DNA of 64,000 nt from Escherichia phage JLBYU50. The translations under genes and the position numbers were made by a program. Below, piece by piece: positions 11,439 to 14,182 of this stretch (positions within the stretch are counted from its first letter, which is position 1; every line of letters begins with the position of its first letter). The DNA is taken from sequence record OK272470.1, one strand, 5' to 3'. Under the pieces are notes generated by a model. The model did no database searches. It saw only the letters and a program-made list of their open reading frames with translations, and had not been told where the DNA came from.

Positions 11439-11514
11439 GGTTCCATAGCTCACTGACGAGAGCGCACACCTCATAAGTGTCGAGGGCAGGGATTGTAACC
11501 CTGGGGAACCACCA
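11439..11514 (+). tRNA. tRNA with CAT anticodon (Met/Ile-type), non-canonical D- and T-loops
   Basis: complete cloverleaf: acceptor GGTTCCA/GGGAACC, D-stem GCTC/GAGC, anticodon loop CTCATAA, T-stem CAGGG/CCCTG, encoded ACCA; T-loop is ATTGTAA rather than TTCRANY. Confidence 0.45.
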
Positions 11515-11545
11515 TTTAAAAGGAGGTGCTATGCATCTCCTATAT

Positions 11546-11631
11546 GCAAGTGTGGTGGAATTGGTGATACACATTGTGCTTAAAACGCAACGCTTAAATG
11601 CTTGAGGGTTCGAATCCCTCCACTTGCACCA
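11546..11631 (+). tRNA. tRNA-Leu (anticodon TAA)
   Basis: acceptor GCAAGTG/CACTTGC, anticodon loop CTTAAAA, long variable arm, T-loop GGTTCGAATCC, ACCA encoded. Confidence 0.8.
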
Positions 11632-11647
11632 ACACCTAAAAAAATAT

Positions 11648-11677
11648 CTTGACATTTACTTAGTTTTTTGTTATAGT
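11648..11677 (+). promoter_or_regulatory. sigma70-like promoter inside tRNA array
   Basis: TTGACA 11648-11653, 18-nt spacer, TATAGT 11672-11677. Confidence 0.45.
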
Positions 11678-11687
11678 TACTATGAAA

Positions 11688-11769
11688 ACGGGGTGTATCT
11701 CACCTGACTTCTAATCAGGCGTTAACCGAGTAATTGGAGTATGCAGGTTCGAATCCTGTCACCCCGGCC
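11688..11769 (+). tRNA. atypical tRNA-like gene, anticodon hairpin reads TCT (Arg-type)
   Basis: perfect acceptor CGGGGTG/CACCCCG, canonical T-arm GCAGG-TTCGAAT-CCTGT, GCCA 3' end, perfect hairpin CCTGA-CTTCTAA-TCAGG; no conventional D-arm fits between acceptor and this hairpin. Confidence 0.4.
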
Positions 11770-11787
11770 AAAAAGTTTTAAAAACTA

Positions 11788-11817
11788 CTTGACAAGCAAG
11801 ATAGTTTTATGTTAGAT
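11788..11817 (+). promoter_or_regulatory. sigma70-like promoter inside tRNA array
   Basis: TTGACA 11788-11793, 18-nt spacer, TAGATT 11812-11817. Confidence 0.4.
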
Positions 11818-11833
11818 TTAAAGTATAATAACT

Positions 11834-11923
11834 GGAAGGTAGGGCGCAGCGGTGCGCAACCAGGTTTGAACCCTGGCCCATTGTAGCGATACGGTGATGG
11901 TTCGACTCCATTATCTTCCTCCA
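11834..11923 (+). tRNA. tRNA-Ser (anticodon TGA)
   Basis: acceptor GGAAGGT/ATCTTCC, anticodon stem CCAGG/CCTGG with loop TTTGAAC, long variable arm, T-loop TTCGACT, TCCA 3' end. Confidence 0.7.
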
Positions 11924-11929
11924 AATTCA

Positions 11930-12094
11930 ATGAGTGATTTTATGAATTATAAAACTATTGGACAGGTTGTTACCGGAGTTAAGATTGTAAATAATAAAGT
12001 TGTTTATGAGTATTCTAATCTTCAACAATCTGAAGATGGTAAGAATATTCGTATGGTAAAAGAAGAACAAAAAGATTCCGGTTGTTTTGAATAA
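11930..12094 (+). CDS. possible small protein (54 aa) between tRNA genes
   Basis: ORF-track ORF 11894..12094 starts inside the tRNA-Ser; first ATG after the tRNA is at 11930; no clear RBS. Confidence 0.25.
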   Translation: MSDFMNYKTIGQVVTGVKIVNNKVVYEYSNLQQSEDGKNIRMVKEEQKDSGCFE

Positions 12095-12102
12095 TTAAAA
12101 AC

Positions 12103-12188
12103 GGTAGATTGGTGAAATGGTAGCCACAACAGTTTGCTAAACTGTCGTCGGAAACGGCGTGTAGGTTCAAGTCCTACATCTACCGCCA
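12103..12188 (+). tRNA. tRNA-Ser (anticodon GCT)
   Basis: acceptor GGTAGAT/ATCTACC, anticodon stem ACAGT/ACTGT loop TTGCTAA, long variable arm, T-arm TAGG-TTCAAGT-CCTA, GCCA. Confidence 0.8.
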
Positions 12189-12315
12189 AGTTATCTTTAA
12201 TGTAGCTTGTCATCTTACTTTAATAGAGTAAACTTTCGGCAGATGGCCCCCCACCATCTTACCGATATCCCATAGTCAAGTGCCGCAAACACTGGCTATT
12301 TTAAAGATAATTTAT

Positions 12316-12391
12316 ACATCGTTAGCTTAGTTGGTAGAGCAAGGGGCTTTTAACTCCAAGGTCGAAGGTTCGAATCCTTCACGATGTACCA
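12316..12391 (+). tRNA. tRNA-Lys (anticodon TTT)
   Basis: acceptor ACATCGT/ACGATGT, D-arm TAGCTTAGTTGGTAGAGC, anticodon loop CTTTTAA, T-loop GGTTCGAATCC, ACCA. Confidence 0.75.
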
Positions 12392-12396
12392 AACAC

Positions 12397-12483
12397 GTAG
12401 GTATCGCATAGCGGCAATTGCTGGAGACTGTAAATCTCTTGCCCTTCGGGGCTTCGTTGGTTCGAGTCCAACTACCTGCACCA
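12397..12483 (+). tRNA. tRNA-Tyr (anticodon GTA)
   Basis: acceptor GTAGGTA/TACCTGC, anticodon loop CTGTAAA, long variable arm, T-arm GTTGG-TTCGAGT-CCAAC, ACCA. Confidence 0.75.
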
Positions 12484-12490
12484 AATTAAA

Positions 12491-12575
12491 GATGGATTGG
12501 CCTAGTGGTTGGGCGACGGACTGTTAATCCGTGAACGAAAGTTCTAGCAAGGTTCAAATCCTTGATCCATCGCCA
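12491..12575 (+). tRNA. tRNA with GTT anticodon (Asn-type) carrying a long variable arm
   Basis: acceptor GATGGAT/ATCCATC, anticodon stem ACGGA/TCCGT loop CTGTTAA, 15-nt variable hairpin GAAC-GAAA-GTTC, T-loop GGTTCAAATCC, GCCA. Confidence 0.55.
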
Positions 12576-12580
12576 AATAG

Positions 12581-12646
12581 TGCTTGTAGAGTTAATAGAA
12601 ACCTCTAGAATTTTCTAGAATTGTAGGTATCAAATCCTACCAAGCA
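12581..12646 (+). other. degenerate tRNA-like remnant
   Basis: acceptor-like TGCTTG/CAAGCA and T-arm-like GTAGG-TATCAAAT-CCTAC, but no foldable anticodon arm and no CCA. Confidence 0.25.
12604..12620. repeat. tandem direct repeat TCTAGAA-TTT-TCTAGAA
   Basis: two copies of TCTAGAA (each containing palindromic TCTAGA) separated by TTT, read directly at 12604-12620. Confidence 0.7.
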
Positions 12647-12654
12647 AATATTTT

Positions 12655-12729
12655 GCTCCTATCGTATAACGGCTATTACGGTTGCCTTGTAAGCAACTTA
12701 TCAGGGTTCGAGTCCTTGTGGGAGCACCA
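12655..12729 (+). tRNA. tRNA-Thr (anticodon TGT)
   Basis: acceptor GCTCCTA/TGGGAGC, anticodon stem GTTGC/GCAAC loop CTTGTAA, T-loop GGGTTCGAGTCC, ACCA. Confidence 0.8.
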
Positions 12730-12751
12730 ATTTAACTCTAAAGGAGTGTAT

Positions 12752-13075
12752 GTGACAGAAAAAGAGTTAGAGGAATATTTTAATATCAATGTTTTCGATG
12801 GTTTTGATGATATTGAAGATGTTGAAAGATATTATGAAGTAGAGTTAGATAAGGATAACATTGTAATTCTTTCTGCAACTTATGATTGTGCATATTATGA
12901 AGGCGAATCTCACGTTTATTTTTATGATATGAAAACATCTTTGTTTTATGAAGTACACGCATATCATTGTTCTTGTTATGGCTTAGAAGGTCAGTGGGAA
13001 CCTGAAGAAATAGGTGATTTGGACTTTACTATTGCATATCTAAACAGACGTGGTGCATCTACTATTTTAAAATAA
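12752..13075 (+). CDS. hypothetical protein (107 aa)
   Basis: ORF-track ORF 12653..13075 starts inside tRNA-Thr; start re-set to in-frame GTG at 12752, 5 nt after AAGGAG. Confidence 0.4.
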   Translation: MTEKELEEYFNINVFDGFDDIEDVERYYEVELDKDNIVILSATYDCAYYEGESHVYFYDMKTSLFYEVHAYHCSCYGLEGQWEPEEIGDLDFTIAYLNRRGASTILK

Positions 13076-13089
13076 ATATCAAAAGCCTC

Positions 13090-13119
13090 TTGACAAAGGG
13101 GCTAATAATATGTTAGAGT
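13090..13119 (+). promoter_or_regulatory. sigma70-like promoter inside tRNA array
   Basis: TTGACA 13090-13095, 18-nt spacer, TAGAGT 13114-13119. Confidence 0.4.
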
Positions 13120-13130
13120 AATATTGTTAA

Positions 13131-13205
13131 GCGGGTATAGTGTTAATGGTAGCATATGAGGTTTCCACCCTCCAGGTGCAGGTTCAAGTCCTGTTACTCG
13201 CTCCA
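13131..13205 (+). tRNA. tRNA-Gly (anticodon TCC)
   Basis: acceptor GCGGGTA/TACTCGC, anticodon loop TTTCCAC, T-arm GCAGG-TTCAAGT-CCTGT, TCCA. Confidence 0.75.
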
Positions 13206-13304
13206 AGATTATTTAAATGGAATCGCTAGAGAAAATTTCTCTTTTCGCTCATGGTTTTCTCCTTCAAACTCTAGCGGTTCTTTTTAAGTGATTTTTAGTT
13301 TTAT

Positions 13305-13379
13305 TGGAGATTAGCCTAGTGGGAAGGCAACGGCCTTTGAAGTCGTGATGACTAGGTTCGATTCCTAGATCTCCAGCCA
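13305..13379 (+). tRNA. tRNA-Gln (anticodon TTG)
   Basis: acceptor TGGAGAT/ATCTCCA, D-arm GCCTAGTGGGAAGGC, anticodon loop CTTTGAA, T-arm CTAGG-TTCGATT-CCTAG, GCCA. Confidence 0.8.
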
Positions 13380-13386
13380 ATATTTA

Positions 13387-13462
13387 CAGTGCGTAGCGCA
13401 GTTGGTAGCGTGGGAGCCTTGGACGCTTCAGGTCGCAGGTTCGAGTCCTGCCGCACTGACCA
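13387..13462 (+). tRNA. tRNA-Pro (anticodon TGG)
   Basis: acceptor CAGTGCG/CGCACTG, D-arm GCGCAGTTGGTAGCGT, anticodon loop CTTGGAC, T-arm GCAGG-TTCGAGT-CCTGC, ACCA. Confidence 0.8.
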
Positions 13463-13467
13463 AATTT

Positions 13468-13542
13468 GCAGAGATAGCTGAGACGGATTAGTGCTACCCT
13501 GAAAAGGTAGAAAGGATGGATCGTTACCATCTCTCTGCACCA
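13468..13542 (+). tRNA. tRNA-Phe (anticodon GAA)
   Basis: acceptor GCAGAGA/TCTCTGC, anticodon stem CTACC/GGTAG loop CTGAAAA, T-stem GATGG/CCATC (loop ATCGTTA), ACCA. Confidence 0.7.
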
Positions 13543-13617
13543 AATATCACCATCCAAGGAGTAGACTTGGTTAACTGTCAATAGCACATTGAGGCTTCTT
13601 ACAGTGGTGTATTTTAT

Positions 13618-13702
13618 GGCTAAGTGGTGGAATGGTATACACGATACGCTTAGAACGTATTGCCCCAAGGGATTGTGAGTTCGAGTCTCACCTTAGCTAC
13701 CA
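13618..13702 (+). tRNA. tRNA-Leu (anticodon TAG)
   Basis: acceptor GGCTAAG/CTTAGCT, anticodon stem ATACG/CGTAT loop CTTAGAA, long variable arm, T-arm GTGAG-TTCGAGT-CTCAC, ACCA. Confidence 0.8.
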
Positions 13703-13780
13703 TATCTAAGAGATATCATAGGGTTTGCAACGGATATCTACCGTCCTGTTAAGGATACCACGCCAAGACGGGTTATAAAG

Positions 13781-13856
13781 GGTTAGCCATTGATAGTGTG
13801 AAGCTGGCGTTTCGAGTGCTTTCATAAGGCATTGCGAGAAGAGTTCGATCCTCTTA
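13781..13856 (+). tRNA. tRNA with CAT anticodon (Met or Ile-lysidine type)
   Basis: perfect acceptor TGATAGT/ACTATCA, anticodon loop TTCATAA, T-arm AAGAG-TTCGATC-CTCTT, ACCA. Confidence 0.65.
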
Positions 13857-13871
13857 CTATCAACCAAATTA

Positions 13872-13950
13872 TTACAGATTGTGCGGGATAGAGGAGTCTG
13901 GTCGTCCTCGCCAGTTTCATATGCTGGAGATCATCGGTTCGAATCCGATT
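13872..13950 (+). tRNA. tRNA with CAT anticodon (Met or Ile-lysidine type), 1:72 mismatch
   Basis: acceptor TGCGGGA/TCCCGCC with unpaired first position, anticodon loop TTCATAT, T-arm ATCGG-TTCGAAT-CCGAT, TCCA. Confidence 0.6.
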
Positions 13951-13994
13951 CCCGCCTCCAATAAATACCTCCCTTCTGGTGTAATGATTAAGTT

Positions 13995-14091
13995 ACATTG
14001 ACACTTCAAGGAACTCATAGCCGGGTAGATTTAAAAGAGTATGGTACTCAATATGGCTCCAAACCATAGATCAGGGGGTTCGATTCCTCAC
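13995..14091 (+). tRNA. tRNA-like element with Trp-type anticodon arm (CCA); 5' half non-canonical
   Basis: perfect anticodon arm TATGG-CTCCAAA-CCATA, T-loop GGTTCGATTCC, GCCA 3' end; no 7-bp acceptor partner at the expected distance, only a 5-bp CAAGG/CCTTG pairing about 40 nt upstream. Confidence 0.35.
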
Positions 14092-14106
14092 CTTGCTGCC
14101 AATTAT

Positions 14107-14182
14107 TGTGGTATCGTACAGATGGTTAGTACACTCGACCGATAATCGAGAAACAACGGTTCGACTCCGTTTACCACGACCA
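14107..14182 (+). tRNA. tRNA-Ile (anticodon GAT)
   Basis: acceptor TGTGGTA/TACCACG, D-arm GTAC-AGATGGTTA-GTAC, anticodon stem CTCGA/TCGAG loop CCGATAA, T-arm AACGG-TTCGACT-CCGTT, ACCA. Confidence 0.75.

What the first reader, a model, noticed from the sequence alone, without database searches (positions are those of the whole stretch)
13995..14091. Trp-type anticodon arm and canonical T-arm without a matching acceptor stem
Seen: a perfect anticodon arm (TATGG-CTCCAAA-CCATA, anticodon CCA), T-loop GGTTCGATTCC and GCCA end are present, but the 3' acceptor strand CCTTGCT has no complementary 5' strand at the expected distance. The only partner is a 5-bp CAAGG about 40 nt further upstream, which also overlaps a TTGACA motif. 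This could be a tRNA-Trp with an inserted 5' region, a pseudogene, or my misfold.
Basis: seen in the sequence. Interest (0 to 1): 0.4.

Follow-up and report, generated by a model that had tools for sequence, protein, structure and literature searches.

The report
Rewired phage tryptophan tRNA gene
The odd stretch is a real, conserved tryptophan tRNA gene of a phi92-like coliphage with a non-standard fold (an 8-pair acceptor stem, a 4-pair T stem and a 9-base insertion that pairs with the variable loop), which is why tRNA finders and every public annotation examined miss it.

Summary
The acceptor 5' strand is not missing. It is AGCCGGGT at 14019-14026, 7 nt further upstream than a standard tRNA allows, and it pairs with ACCTTGCT at 14090-14097.

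The gene is window 14019-14101 (+), 83 nt, anticodon CCA. It has an 8-bp acceptor stem, a 4-bp T stem and a 10-nt connector instead of 2 nt. Three connector bases (GAT, 14028-30) pair with the variable loop (ATC, 14070-72). The D arm is compact (5 bp plus a TGG loop).

Relatives occur in three subfamilies of enterobacterial myoviruses, about 22 metagenomic phage lineages and 2 of 185,579 species genomes. In 35 distinct sequences 91.7% of predicted pairs form, against 41-47% in slid controls. The eighth acceptor pair forms in 35/35 with six pair types, and the connector-variable pairs covary.

Trp identity marks (CCA; G73 in 34/35; A1-U72 or G1-U72) are kept. No cluster searched that carries the element has another tRNA-Trp.

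Best reading: a functional, non-canonical tRNA-Trp. The pseudogene reading and the CAAGG pairing are rejected. Expression and charging are untested.

The parts
14019..14101 (+). Whole gene: non-canonical tRNA-Trp(CCA), 83 nt, with the 3' CCA encoded
   Evidence: Model R1 scores 102.6 bits. ARAGORN -mt calls mtRNA-Trp at exactly these coordinates. Homology with relatives starts at about 14017 and ends at about 14102.
14019..14026 (+). Acceptor stem 5' strand AGCCGGGT (8 nt); T precedes it at position -1
   Evidence: Pairs with 14090-14097. All eight pairs vary while staying paired across the family; seven show changes on both sides, and pair 1 alternates only A-U/G-U. Pairs 4 and 5 are often mismatched.
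14027..14027 (+). Single unpaired A (equivalent of position 9)
   Evidence: Alignments A5 and A7: A in nearly all members.
14028..14030 (+). Connector strand GAT of the connector-variable helix ('X' helix)
   Evidence: Pairs with ATC at 14070-72. Family counts: 34/34, 35/35 (five pair types) and 26/35. In five held-out sequences 15/15 cells pair.
14031..14036 (+). Unpaired connector TTAAAA (family motif YTAAW)
   Evidence: Conserved as TTTAAA, TTTTAA, TTAAT or CTAAT in alignments. Its function is unknown.
14037..14049 (+). Compact D arm: GAGTA-TGG-TACTC (5-bp stem, 3-nt loop with an invariant GG)
   Evidence: All five pairs show changes on both sides in the family. GG is invariant in A2.
14050..14051 (+). 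AA spacer between the D arm and the anticodon stem
   Evidence: Direct reading.
14052..14068 (+). Anticodon arm TATGG-CTCCAAA-CCATA; anticodon CCA at 14059-14061, with U33 and A37
   Evidence: Direct reading. Stem pairs covary. TCCAA is invariant.
14069..14074 (+). Six-nt variable region GATCAG; its ATC (14070-72) is the 3' strand of the X helix
14075..14089 (+). T arm: 4-bp stem GGGG/CCTC (with a conserved G.U) and loop TTCGATT
   Evidence: 100% of T-stem cells pair. G.U is present in 34/35. The would-be fifth pair 49:65 forms in only 3/16.
14090..14097 (+). Acceptor stem 3' strand ACCTTGCT; A14090 pairs with T14026 (the eighth pair)
   Evidence: The eighth pair forms in 35/35 with six pair types and in 16/16 of the first set.
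14098..14101 (+). Discriminator G73 and encoded CCA
   Evidence: Direct reading. G73 in 34/35 family members.
13090..13119 (+). Nearest strong sigma-70-like promoter upstream (TTGACA-18-TAGAGT, TG-extended); presumed start of the polycistronic tRNA transcript. This role is inferred.
   Evidence: Promoter scan. No acceptable -10 follows the TTGACA at 13998.

Best explanation
Window 14019-14101 encodes a functional elongator tRNA-Trp(CCA) with a re-wired cloverleaf.

Shown: the acceptor stem has 8 bp and the T stem 4 bp, so the acceptor/T branch keeps the usual 12 bp. The connector between the acceptor stem and the D arm is 10 nt instead of 2. Three connector bases pair with variable-loop bases next to the anticodon stem. 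The D arm is compact (5 bp plus a UGG loop). This fold is maintained by selection in many phages.

Inferred: the RNA is co-transcribed with the neighbouring tRNAs from the promoter at about 13090. RNase P cuts after the conserved U at position -1, and the CCA is encoded. Host TrpRS charges it, using C34-C35-A36, G73 and the A1-U72 pair. EF-Tu carries it, because the 12-bp branch is preserved. It reads UGG and supplies the one amino-acid specificity that the phage's otherwise broad tRNA set lacks.
For: Fold found independently:
- RNAfold, RNAalifold on a sequence-only MAFFT alignment and ARAGORN -mt all give the 14019-26/14090-97 acceptor stem.

Conservation:
- Unannotated homologues lie in the tRNA clusters of Stephanstirmvirinae, Ounavirinae and Vequintavirinae.
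- There are 17 metagenomic lineages, 5 more found with a connector-independent pattern and 2 bacterial genomes.

Covariation:
- MAFFT alignment A2: 87.3% of cells paired against 41-50% when slid; 14 pairs with changes on both sides; 0/500 shuffles reach this.
- 35 distinct sequences: 91.7% against 41-47%; 22 of 25 pairs with changes on both sides.
- Eighth acceptor pair: 35/35 paired, six pair types. The canonical 49:65 pair forms in only 3/16.
- X helix: 34/34, 35/35 and 26/35. Held-out set: 15/15, with all four Watson-Crick types at the middle pair.

Functional residues:
- TCCAA of the anticodon loop, GG of the D loop, GTTCGA of the T arm and U72 are invariant.
- G73 in 34/35; pair 1:72 is A-U in 29 and G-U in 6.
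- These match the bacterial Trp identity set (PMC9976931).

Context:
- No ARAGORN tRNA-Trp in the window or in any cluster searched that carries the element.
- The L016 cluster has tRNAs for the 19 other amino acids plus this element.
- The 3' half is about 81% identical to canonical phage tRNA-Trp genes.
Against: There are no expression, processing or aminoacylation data.

In the window copy the acceptor stem has a C4.U69 mismatch and a G5.U68 pair. The Certrevirus copies have two adjacent pyrimidine mismatches.

The minimum free energy is no better than that of shuffled sequence (z = +0.24).

The X helix has only 2-3 bp and appears in the MFE fold of only 4 of 35 members. Its third pair is absent in 9 of 35.

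The D loop lacks the usual A14, R15 and A21 positions, so the L-shape is not assured.

Alignments A3, A5, A7 and A8 were fitted to the model and lean towards it. A2 was not fitted.

Some 8/4 tRNAs described earlier were charged but not used in translation, or were inactive (PMC5389517).
Confidence: 0.75

Rival explanations
1. It is a decaying tRNA-Trp pseudogene or a recombination remnant whose 5' half was scrambled, and it has no function.
For: Default ARAGORN and Rfam do not recognise it. The acceptor stem has a mismatch. The folding energy is no better than shuffles. HNH homing endonucleases shuffle these tRNA clusters.
Against: The same architecture is kept at only 73-80% sequence identity across three phage subfamilies and more than 20 metagenomic lineages. 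Compensatory changes occur in all five helices, including the unusual ones, and the functional loops are invariant. A neutral remnant would not covary.
Confidence: 0.03
2. It is a tRNA-like RNA that is not used for decoding. It could be a decoy for a host tRNA-targeting nuclease, a sink for an enzyme, or a regulatory RNA that only mimics tRNA-Trp.
For: The core is rebuilt, which could impair ribosome use. Some irregular 8/4 tRNAs were charged but not used in translation (PMC5389517). Phage tRNAs are linked to evasion of anticodon nucleases (my own knowledge, not checked here).
Against: Everything translation needs is conserved: a 7-nt anticodon loop with U33 and A37, a 12-bp acceptor/T branch, G73 and CCA. 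It sits in tRNA sets that lack any other tRNA-Trp.
Confidence: 0.12
3. It is a tRNA-Trp(CCA) whose rebuilt hinge lets it read UGA as well as UGG. That would make it a natural analogue of the Hirsh G24A / A9C suppressors, giving the phage UGA read-through.
For: The insertion and the X helix lie exactly in the hinge (positions 9-12, 23-26, 44-45) whose mutation makes E. coli tRNA-Trp read UGA (PMC13092985). The 31:39 pair is unpaired in 12/35 and in 4/5 held-out members. TGA closes only 5 of 59 long ORFs in the window.
Against: The window is 38% G+C, which by itself favours TAA. TGA is still used as a stop, including on an 859-aa ORF. Read-through extensions are short (2-28 codons), and no convincing in-frame TGA genes were seen. 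In the window copy the 31:39 pair is an intact G-C.
Confidence: 0.1
4. It is a tRNA-Trp closed by the CAAGG at 14007-14011, with a ~40-nt insert or intron.
For: CAAGG can pair with CCTTG.
Against: The region upstream of about 14017 is not conserved. In SD2 and UAB_1 it is replaced, in SD2 by an HNH endonuclease gene that ends 5 nt before the tRNA, while the tRNA stays 99% identical. The AGCCGGGT strand covaries with the 3' strand. No bacterial mechanism is known that removes such an insert (my own knowledge).
Confidence: 0.01

Closest known systems
8/4 tRNAs of Mukai et al. 2017 (PMC5389517): allo-tRNAs, (8/4) tRNA-Ser and tRNA-His of phages, and 8/4 tRNAs with an 'extra loop' (E-loop)
   Same: An 8-bp acceptor stem with a 4-bp T stem, keeping a 12-bp branch. 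A long D stem with a very small loop. Found in phage tRNA clusters and missed by standard finders.
   Different: Those tRNAs have long variable arms and Ser, His, Cys or mixed identities. No Trp species is mentioned in that paper. Here the variable region is 5-7 nt and the extra sequence is a 7-9-nt insertion 5' of the D arm that pairs with the variable loop. I could not see where their 'E-loop' lies because the figure is not held, so overlap with that subgroup cannot be excluded.
Canonical bacterial and phage tRNA-Trp(CCA), e.g. those of Klebsiella T4-like phages
   Same: The anticodon arm, T loop, G73, A1-U72 and CCA. The 3' half is about 81% identical. The presumed function is the same.
   Different: Canonical genes are 7/5 with a 2-nt connector and a 4-bp D stem. 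In an arbitrary sample of 94 viral Trp-type tRNA matches (those whose acceptor stem paired at 6 or more of 7 positions) nearly all had the canonical spacing.
Compact phage tRNA-Trp class (L015 2775-2846, L379, L024, L375)
   Same: The same D arm (5-bp stem, TGG loop, AA spacer) and the same anticodon and T arms.
   Different: These have a 7-bp acceptor with a pairable 49:65, a 1-nt connector and no insertion or X helix, and default ARAGORN finds L015, the one checked. The family here looks like this class plus the insertion, but that derivation is inferred.
tRNA-Sec (Rfam RF01852)
   Same: The best Rfam match. It shares an extended acceptor stem and a long D stem with a tiny loop.
   Different: The score is 22.4 bits against a gathering score of 47. 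The anticodon is CCA, not UCA. There is no long variable arm. The branch has 12 bp, not the 13 bp of bacterial tRNA-Sec.
Hirsh (G24A) and A9C suppressor forms, and 4-bp-anticodon-stem forms, of tRNA-Trp(CCA)
   Same: The same tRNA identity, with changes in the D-arm/variable hinge or at the end of the anticodon stem.
   Different: Those are point changes in a canonical fold with demonstrated UGA reading. Here the hinge is rebuilt and no UGA reading is shown.

Membership tests
tRNA (general) | Acceptor stem closed next to a discriminator base and a 3' CCA | tested here: met
   14019-26 pairs with 14090-97, followed by G and CCA. The stem covaries.
tRNA (general) | T arm with a TTCRANN loop, and an anticodon arm with a 7-nt loop, U33 and a purine at 37 | tested here: met
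   TTCGATT and CTCCAAA; invariant columns.
tRNA (general) | D arm carrying the GG that contacts the T loop | tested here: met
   GAGTA-TGG-TACTC at 14037-49. GG is invariant and the stem covaries. The contact itself cannot be tested here.
Canonical cloverleaf (7/5, 2-nt connector) | A 7-bp acceptor stem plus a 5-bp T stem | tested here: not met
   The 8:65 pair forms in 35/35. The 49:65 pair forms in 3/16.
Canonical cloverleaf (7/5, 2-nt connector) | Two nucleotides (8, 9) between the acceptor stem and the D stem | tested here: not met
   Ten nt in the window copy (14027-14036), and 8-10 nt across the phage relatives compared.
Canonical cloverleaf (7/5, 2-nt connector) | Recognised by the standard models (Rfam RF00005 gathering score; default ARAGORN) | tested here: not met
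   tRNAscan-SE was not available.
Bacterial tRNA-Trp identity | Anticodon C34 C35 A36 | tested here: met
   Present in the window and every relative collected. The metagenome and viral patterns required TCCAA, so invariance there is partly by construction. The BLAST-found phage homologues were not selected that way.
Bacterial tRNA-Trp identity | Discriminator G73 and an A1-U72 first pair | tested here: met
   G73 in 34/35. Pair 1:72 is A-U in 29 and G-U in 6. Identity set taken from PMC9976931.
Bacterial tRNA-Trp identity | Charged with tryptophan by TrpRS | not testable with these tools
   Needs an aminoacylation assay.
8/4 tRNAs (Mukai et al. 2017) | A 12-bp acceptor/T branch split 8 + 4 | tested here: met
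8/4 tRNAs (Mukai et al. 2017) | Long variable arm with Ser-type or other non-Trp identity (allo-tRNA group) | tested here: not met
   The variable region is 5-7 nt and the identity marks are those of Trp.
tRNA-Sec | UCA anticodon, a 13-bp branch, a long variable arm, and the Rfam RF01852 gathering score | tested here: not met
   CCA anticodon, 12 bp, 22.4 bits against 47.
tRNA pseudogene | Helices decay without compensation and there is no conservation beyond close relatives | tested here: not met
   22 of 25 pairs show changes on both sides with pairing kept.
UGA-reading tRNA-Trp(CCA) variants | Measurable UGA read-through | not testable with these tools
   Only indirect signs, and they are inconclusive.

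The most novel reading that the evidence does not exclude
The rebuilt hinge (the connector insertion paired to the variable loop, and often an open 31:39 pair) has a specific purpose. Either it lets this tRNA-Trp(CCA) read UGA as well as UGG, as a natural, phage-borne Hirsh-type suppressor. Or it makes the phage's tRNA-Trp invisible to a host tRNA-targeting defence while it still works in translation. Either way it would be a naturally occurring, translation-competent tRNA in E. coli phages whose core is held together differently from the canonical L-shape.
Probability: 0.15. Interest if true: 0.8.

Novelty: new variant of a known kind. Interest (0 to 1): 0.55.

Why it matters
First, it is an annotation gap. 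None of the public records examined for phi92-like, Certrevirus and some Ounavirinae phages lists this gene, and several carry a spurious 'hypothetical protein' over it. Their tRNA sets therefore appear to lack Trp.

Second, it is a natural experiment in tRNA architecture. [quoted passage not shown] Here an 8/4 tRNA with an insertion that pairs with the variable loop is maintained in phages of E. coli, where TrpRS, EF-Tu, RNase P and ribosome assays are routine.

Third, the change sits in the very hinge that controls UGA misreading by tRNA-Trp. This gives a directly testable link between natural tRNA shape and decoding fidelity.

Fourth, a scaffold that E. coli machinery accepts but that differs in its core could be useful for engineering orthogonal tRNAs.

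Tried and rejected
- **CAAGG (14007-11) as acceptor partner.** Rejected: not conserved.
- **TTGACA at 13998 as a promoter.** No -10 at 16-18 nt. The TAGATT inside the connector is 22 nt away and is not conserved where the X helix covaries.
- **A canonical 7/5 fold.** 49:65 pairs in only 3/16. My first test, hit a gap column and was uninformative.
- **L015 2766-2846 as a GC-rich family member, and L164 3074-3156 as an Arg version of the same fold.** Both withdrawn: ARAGORN calls canonical tRNAs at L015 2775-2846 and L164 3081-3156. I therefore have no evidence that the architecture extends beyond Trp.
- **ARAGORN with relaxed thresholds.** It calls tRNA-Trp at 14024-14101 but forces a poor acceptor stem.
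- **MAFFT alignment A4 of 33 sequences.** It misplaced the 5' strand of members with shorter connectors, so it was not used for counts.
- **Thermodynamic support for the X helix.** Weak: present in 4 of 35 MFE folds.
- **UGA recoding.** No convincing sign.
- **Literature.** Five searches and four papers gave no description of this tRNA.
- **Not used.** The protein and structure-prediction tools were not relevant to this finding.

Full report
**Where the window comes from.** The 701 bases around the finding are 98-99% identical to phi92-like coliphages (Justusliebigvirus, Stephanstirmvirinae). The finding lies inside a tRNA cluster at 11439-14182. ARAGORN tRNAs there, none of them Trp and none in the 146-nt gap at 13961-14106.

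**Checking the observation.** The anticodon arm (TATGG-CTCCAAA-CCATA, 14052-14068), the T loop (TTCGATT, 14079-14085), the 3' strand CCTTGCT, G73 and CCA (to 14101) are all present. So are TTGACA (13998-14003) and CAAGG (14007-14011). Rfam gives only a sub-threshold tRNA-Sec match at 14024-14100 (22.4 bits against a gathering score of 47).

A complementary 5' strand does exist, however. AGCCGGGT at 14019-14026 pairs with ACCTTGCT at 14090-14097, with one C.U mismatch and one G.U pair. It lies 7 nt further upstream than a canonical tRNA would allow. RNAfold finds this stem unaided. RNAalifold finds it on a sequence-only alignment. ARAGORN in its permissive -mt mode returns exactly 14019-14101 as Trp(cca). 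With merely relaxed thresholds ARAGORN calls 14024-14101 and forces a poor stem.

**Relatives.** BLAST of the spacer finds the element in all phi92-like genomes. Homology at about 80% starts at window position ~14017 in Klebsiella phage KP13-26 and Citrobacter phage Tr1 (Stephanstirmvirinae). Homology at about 75% is found in Hafnia phages and 'Listeria' phage LPML1 (Ounavirinae). A further group lies in Certrevirus phages of Pectobacterium, Cronobacter, Enterobacter and Klebsiella (Vequintavirinae).

In every case the element sits between annotated tRNAs. It is itself either unannotated or overlaid by a 'hypothetical protein'. In phage SD2 the upstream spacer is replaced by an HNH endonuclease gene that ends 5 nt before the element, and the element stays 99% identical. 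This fixes the 5' boundary and excludes the CAAGG pairing.

**Wider sampling.**
- A pattern scan of JGI metagenomes gave 17 further lineages.
- A second viral scan, with a pattern that says nothing about the connector, gave five more.
- A scan of one genome for each of 185,579 species gave only two real members, in Paenibacillus melissococcoides and a Carnobacterium MAG. The other hits were chance matches.

The family is therefore a phage-borne minority form.

**Structure.** In window coordinates:
- acceptor stem, 8 bp (14019-26 with 14090-97);
- a single A (14027);
- GAT (14028-30), pairing with ATC (14070-72) in the 6-nt variable region;
- TTAAAA (14031-36), unpaired;
- D arm GAGTA-TGG-TACTC (14037-49);
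- AA (14050-51);
- anticodon arm (14052-68);
- T stem of only 4 bp, GGGG/CCTC (14075-78 with 14086-89);
- G73 and CCA (14098-14101).

The 3' half has the same length as in a normal tRNA. Position 65 pairs with position 8 instead of position 49. The only extra sequence is a 9-nt insertion (7 nt in Certrevirus) between position 9 and the D arm.

**Comparative support.**
- On the MAFFT alignment A2 (15 sequences, not fitted to any structure), 87.3% of cells pair against 41-50% when the partners are slid. Fourteen pairs show changes on both sides, and 0 of 500 shuffles reach these values.
- On 35 distinct sequences aligned to model R1, 91.7% of cells pair against 41-47%, and 22 of 25 pairs show changes on both sides.
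- The eighth acceptor pair forms in 35/35: UA 20, GC 6, AU 3, CG 3, UG 2, GU 1. The canonical 49:65 pair forms in only 3 of 16.
- The three connector-variable pairs form in 34/34, 35/35 (AU 14, CG 11, GC 5, UA 4, UG 1) and 26/35.
- The five sequences found without reference to the connector, and not used to build the model, pair in 15/15 of these cells. All four Watson-Crick types occur at the middle pair.

**Caveats on the structure.** Alignments A3, A5, A7 and A8 were fitted to the model. The connector-variable helix is short and appears in only 4 of 35 MFE folds, so it rests on covariation rather than energy. The window copy folds no better than shuffled sequence (z = +0.24).

**Function.** The residues needed for translation are conserved. 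These are TCCAA of the anticodon loop with U33 and A37, GG in the D loop, GTTCGA in the T arm, U72, G73 (34/35), and an A-U (29) or G-U (6) first pair. They coincide with the bacterial tryptophan identity set of anticodon, G73 and first pair (PMC9976931).

The 8 + 4 split keeps the 12-bp branch that EF-Tu reads (PMC5389517). The base at position -1 is T in almost all members.

No ARAGORN tRNA-Trp is present in the window or in any cluster I examined that carries the element. The L016 cluster encodes tRNAs for the 19 other amino acids plus this element. The 3' half is about 81% identical to ordinary tRNA-Trp genes of Klebsiella T4-like phages.

No sigma-70-like promoter follows the TTGACA at 13998. 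The nearest strong one is at 13090-13119, so co-transcription with the neighbouring tRNAs is likely.

I conclude, with about 0.75 confidence, that this is a working tRNA-Trp. Transcription, processing, charging and decoding are all inferred, not shown.

**Rivals.**
- A pseudogene is excluded by the covariation.
- A non-decoding tRNA mimic (decoy or regulator) cannot be excluded, and it has precedents among irregular 8/4 tRNAs. It does not explain why every translational feature is kept.
- A UGA-reading variant is attractive. The rebuilt region is the hinge where the Hirsh G24A and A9C mutations act (PMC13092985). The 31:39 pair is open in 12/35 members. The window's stop codons are TAA 49, TGA 5 and TAG 5. 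But the genome is 38% G+C, TGA still ends an 859-aa ORF, and read-through extensions are short. This reading remains speculative.

**Comparison with what is known.** 8/4 tRNAs were described by Mukai et al. (2017) for Ser, His, Cys, Sec and 'allo' species, some of them in phages. Those have long variable arms, and Trp is not mentioned in that paper. They also mention 8/4 tRNAs with an 'extra loop', whose position I could not check. A 2020 review of non-canonical tRNAs lists nothing like this one.

A compact phage tRNA-Trp class has the same D arm, a 1-nt connector and a 7/5 branch (L015, L379, L024, L375). It looks like the parent form. I therefore file the element as a new variant of a known kind: an 8/4 tRNA of Trp identity, with an insertion in the 8-10 connector that pairs with the variable loop.

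**Corrections made during the work.** Two sequences that the covariance model suggested as further members (L015 2766-2846 and an Arg-type hit, L164 3074-3156) turned out to be canonical tRNAs when checked with ARAGORN. Both were dropped.

Noticed in passing
window 11689-11770 (+): A second tRNA missed by ARAGORN. Its anticodon loop is CTTCTAA (UCU, Arg-type). It has a normal 7/5 acceptor/T branch but only 7 nt (TATCTCA) between the acceptor stem and the anticodon stem, so no D arm, and a 24-nt variable region (CGTTAACCGAGTAATTGGAGTATG). Rfam tRNA scores 38.6 bits. It is conserved at 83-100% identity in Stephanstirm-, Ouna- and Vequintavirinae, a Klebsiella siphovirus and a jumbo phage, where it is annotated as 'tRNA-OTHER' or not at all. 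The acceptor and anticodon stems covary while the core is invariant. A long variable arm with G73 raises the question of which amino acid it carries.
   Followed up: partly
L003 1463-1558 (-); L045 401-583 (-); several phi92-like records: Public records place 'hypothetical protein' CDSs over the unrecognised tRNA-Trp gene. These are probably spurious ORF calls that fill the gap.
   Followed up: no
L006 1189-1497 (Escherichia phage SD2); also L004 2158-2637, L040 1590-2018, L044 1-206, L177 241-384: HNH homing-endonuclease genes are interspersed in these tRNA clusters. In SD2 one ends 5 nt before the tRNA-Trp gene and replaces the spacer seen in the window.
   Followed up: no
L015 2775-2846; L379, L024, L375: A compact class of phage tRNA-Trp (~72 nt). 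It has one nucleotide between the acceptor stem and the D arm, and a 5-bp/TGG D arm identical in form to that of the window element. It is a possible ancestor of the inserted form.
   Followed up: partly
L133 1226-1584; L359 90-440; L373 883-1294: tmRNA genes lie next to large tRNA clusters on metagenomic contigs that also carry the non-canonical tRNA-Trp. L359 comes from a 248-kb viral contig.
   Followed up: no
L016 9301-9375 (-); L365 187-260 (+): tRNAs with a CTA anticodon (amber-suppressor type, labelled 'Pyl' by ARAGORN) occur in two phage tRNA clusters that carry the element.
   Followed up: no
window 11649-11677, 11789-11818, 13090-13119 (+): Three near-consensus sigma-70-like promoters (TTGACA, 17-18 nt spacer, TG-extended -10) lie inside the tRNA cluster. 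The first two stand directly before the odd UCU tRNA and before tRNA-Ser. The -10 region of the second (TAGATTTAAAG) resembles the connector TAGATTTAAAAG of the Trp gene, but that match is not conserved in relatives.
   Followed up: partly
whole window (59 ORFs of at least 80 aa): Stop-codon use is TAA 49, TGA 5, TAG 5 at 38% G+C. TGA looks scarce, but the sample is small and no control genome was compared.
   Followed up: partly
records MG065639, MG065645, MG065656, MG065689 ('Campylobacter phage'); OK283618 ('Listeria phage LPML1'): The four 'Campylobacter' phage records are 98.6% identical to phi92-like coliphages over this locus. LPML1 is classed in Ounavirinae alongside enterobacterial phages, so its Listeria host label looks doubtful, as do the Campylobacter labels.
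   Followed up: no
window 14076:14088, and the same pair in relatives: The second pair of the 4-bp T stem is G.U in 34 of 35 family members. This is stricter conservation than pairing alone requires. It may tune EF-Tu affinity (my inference).
   Followed up: no
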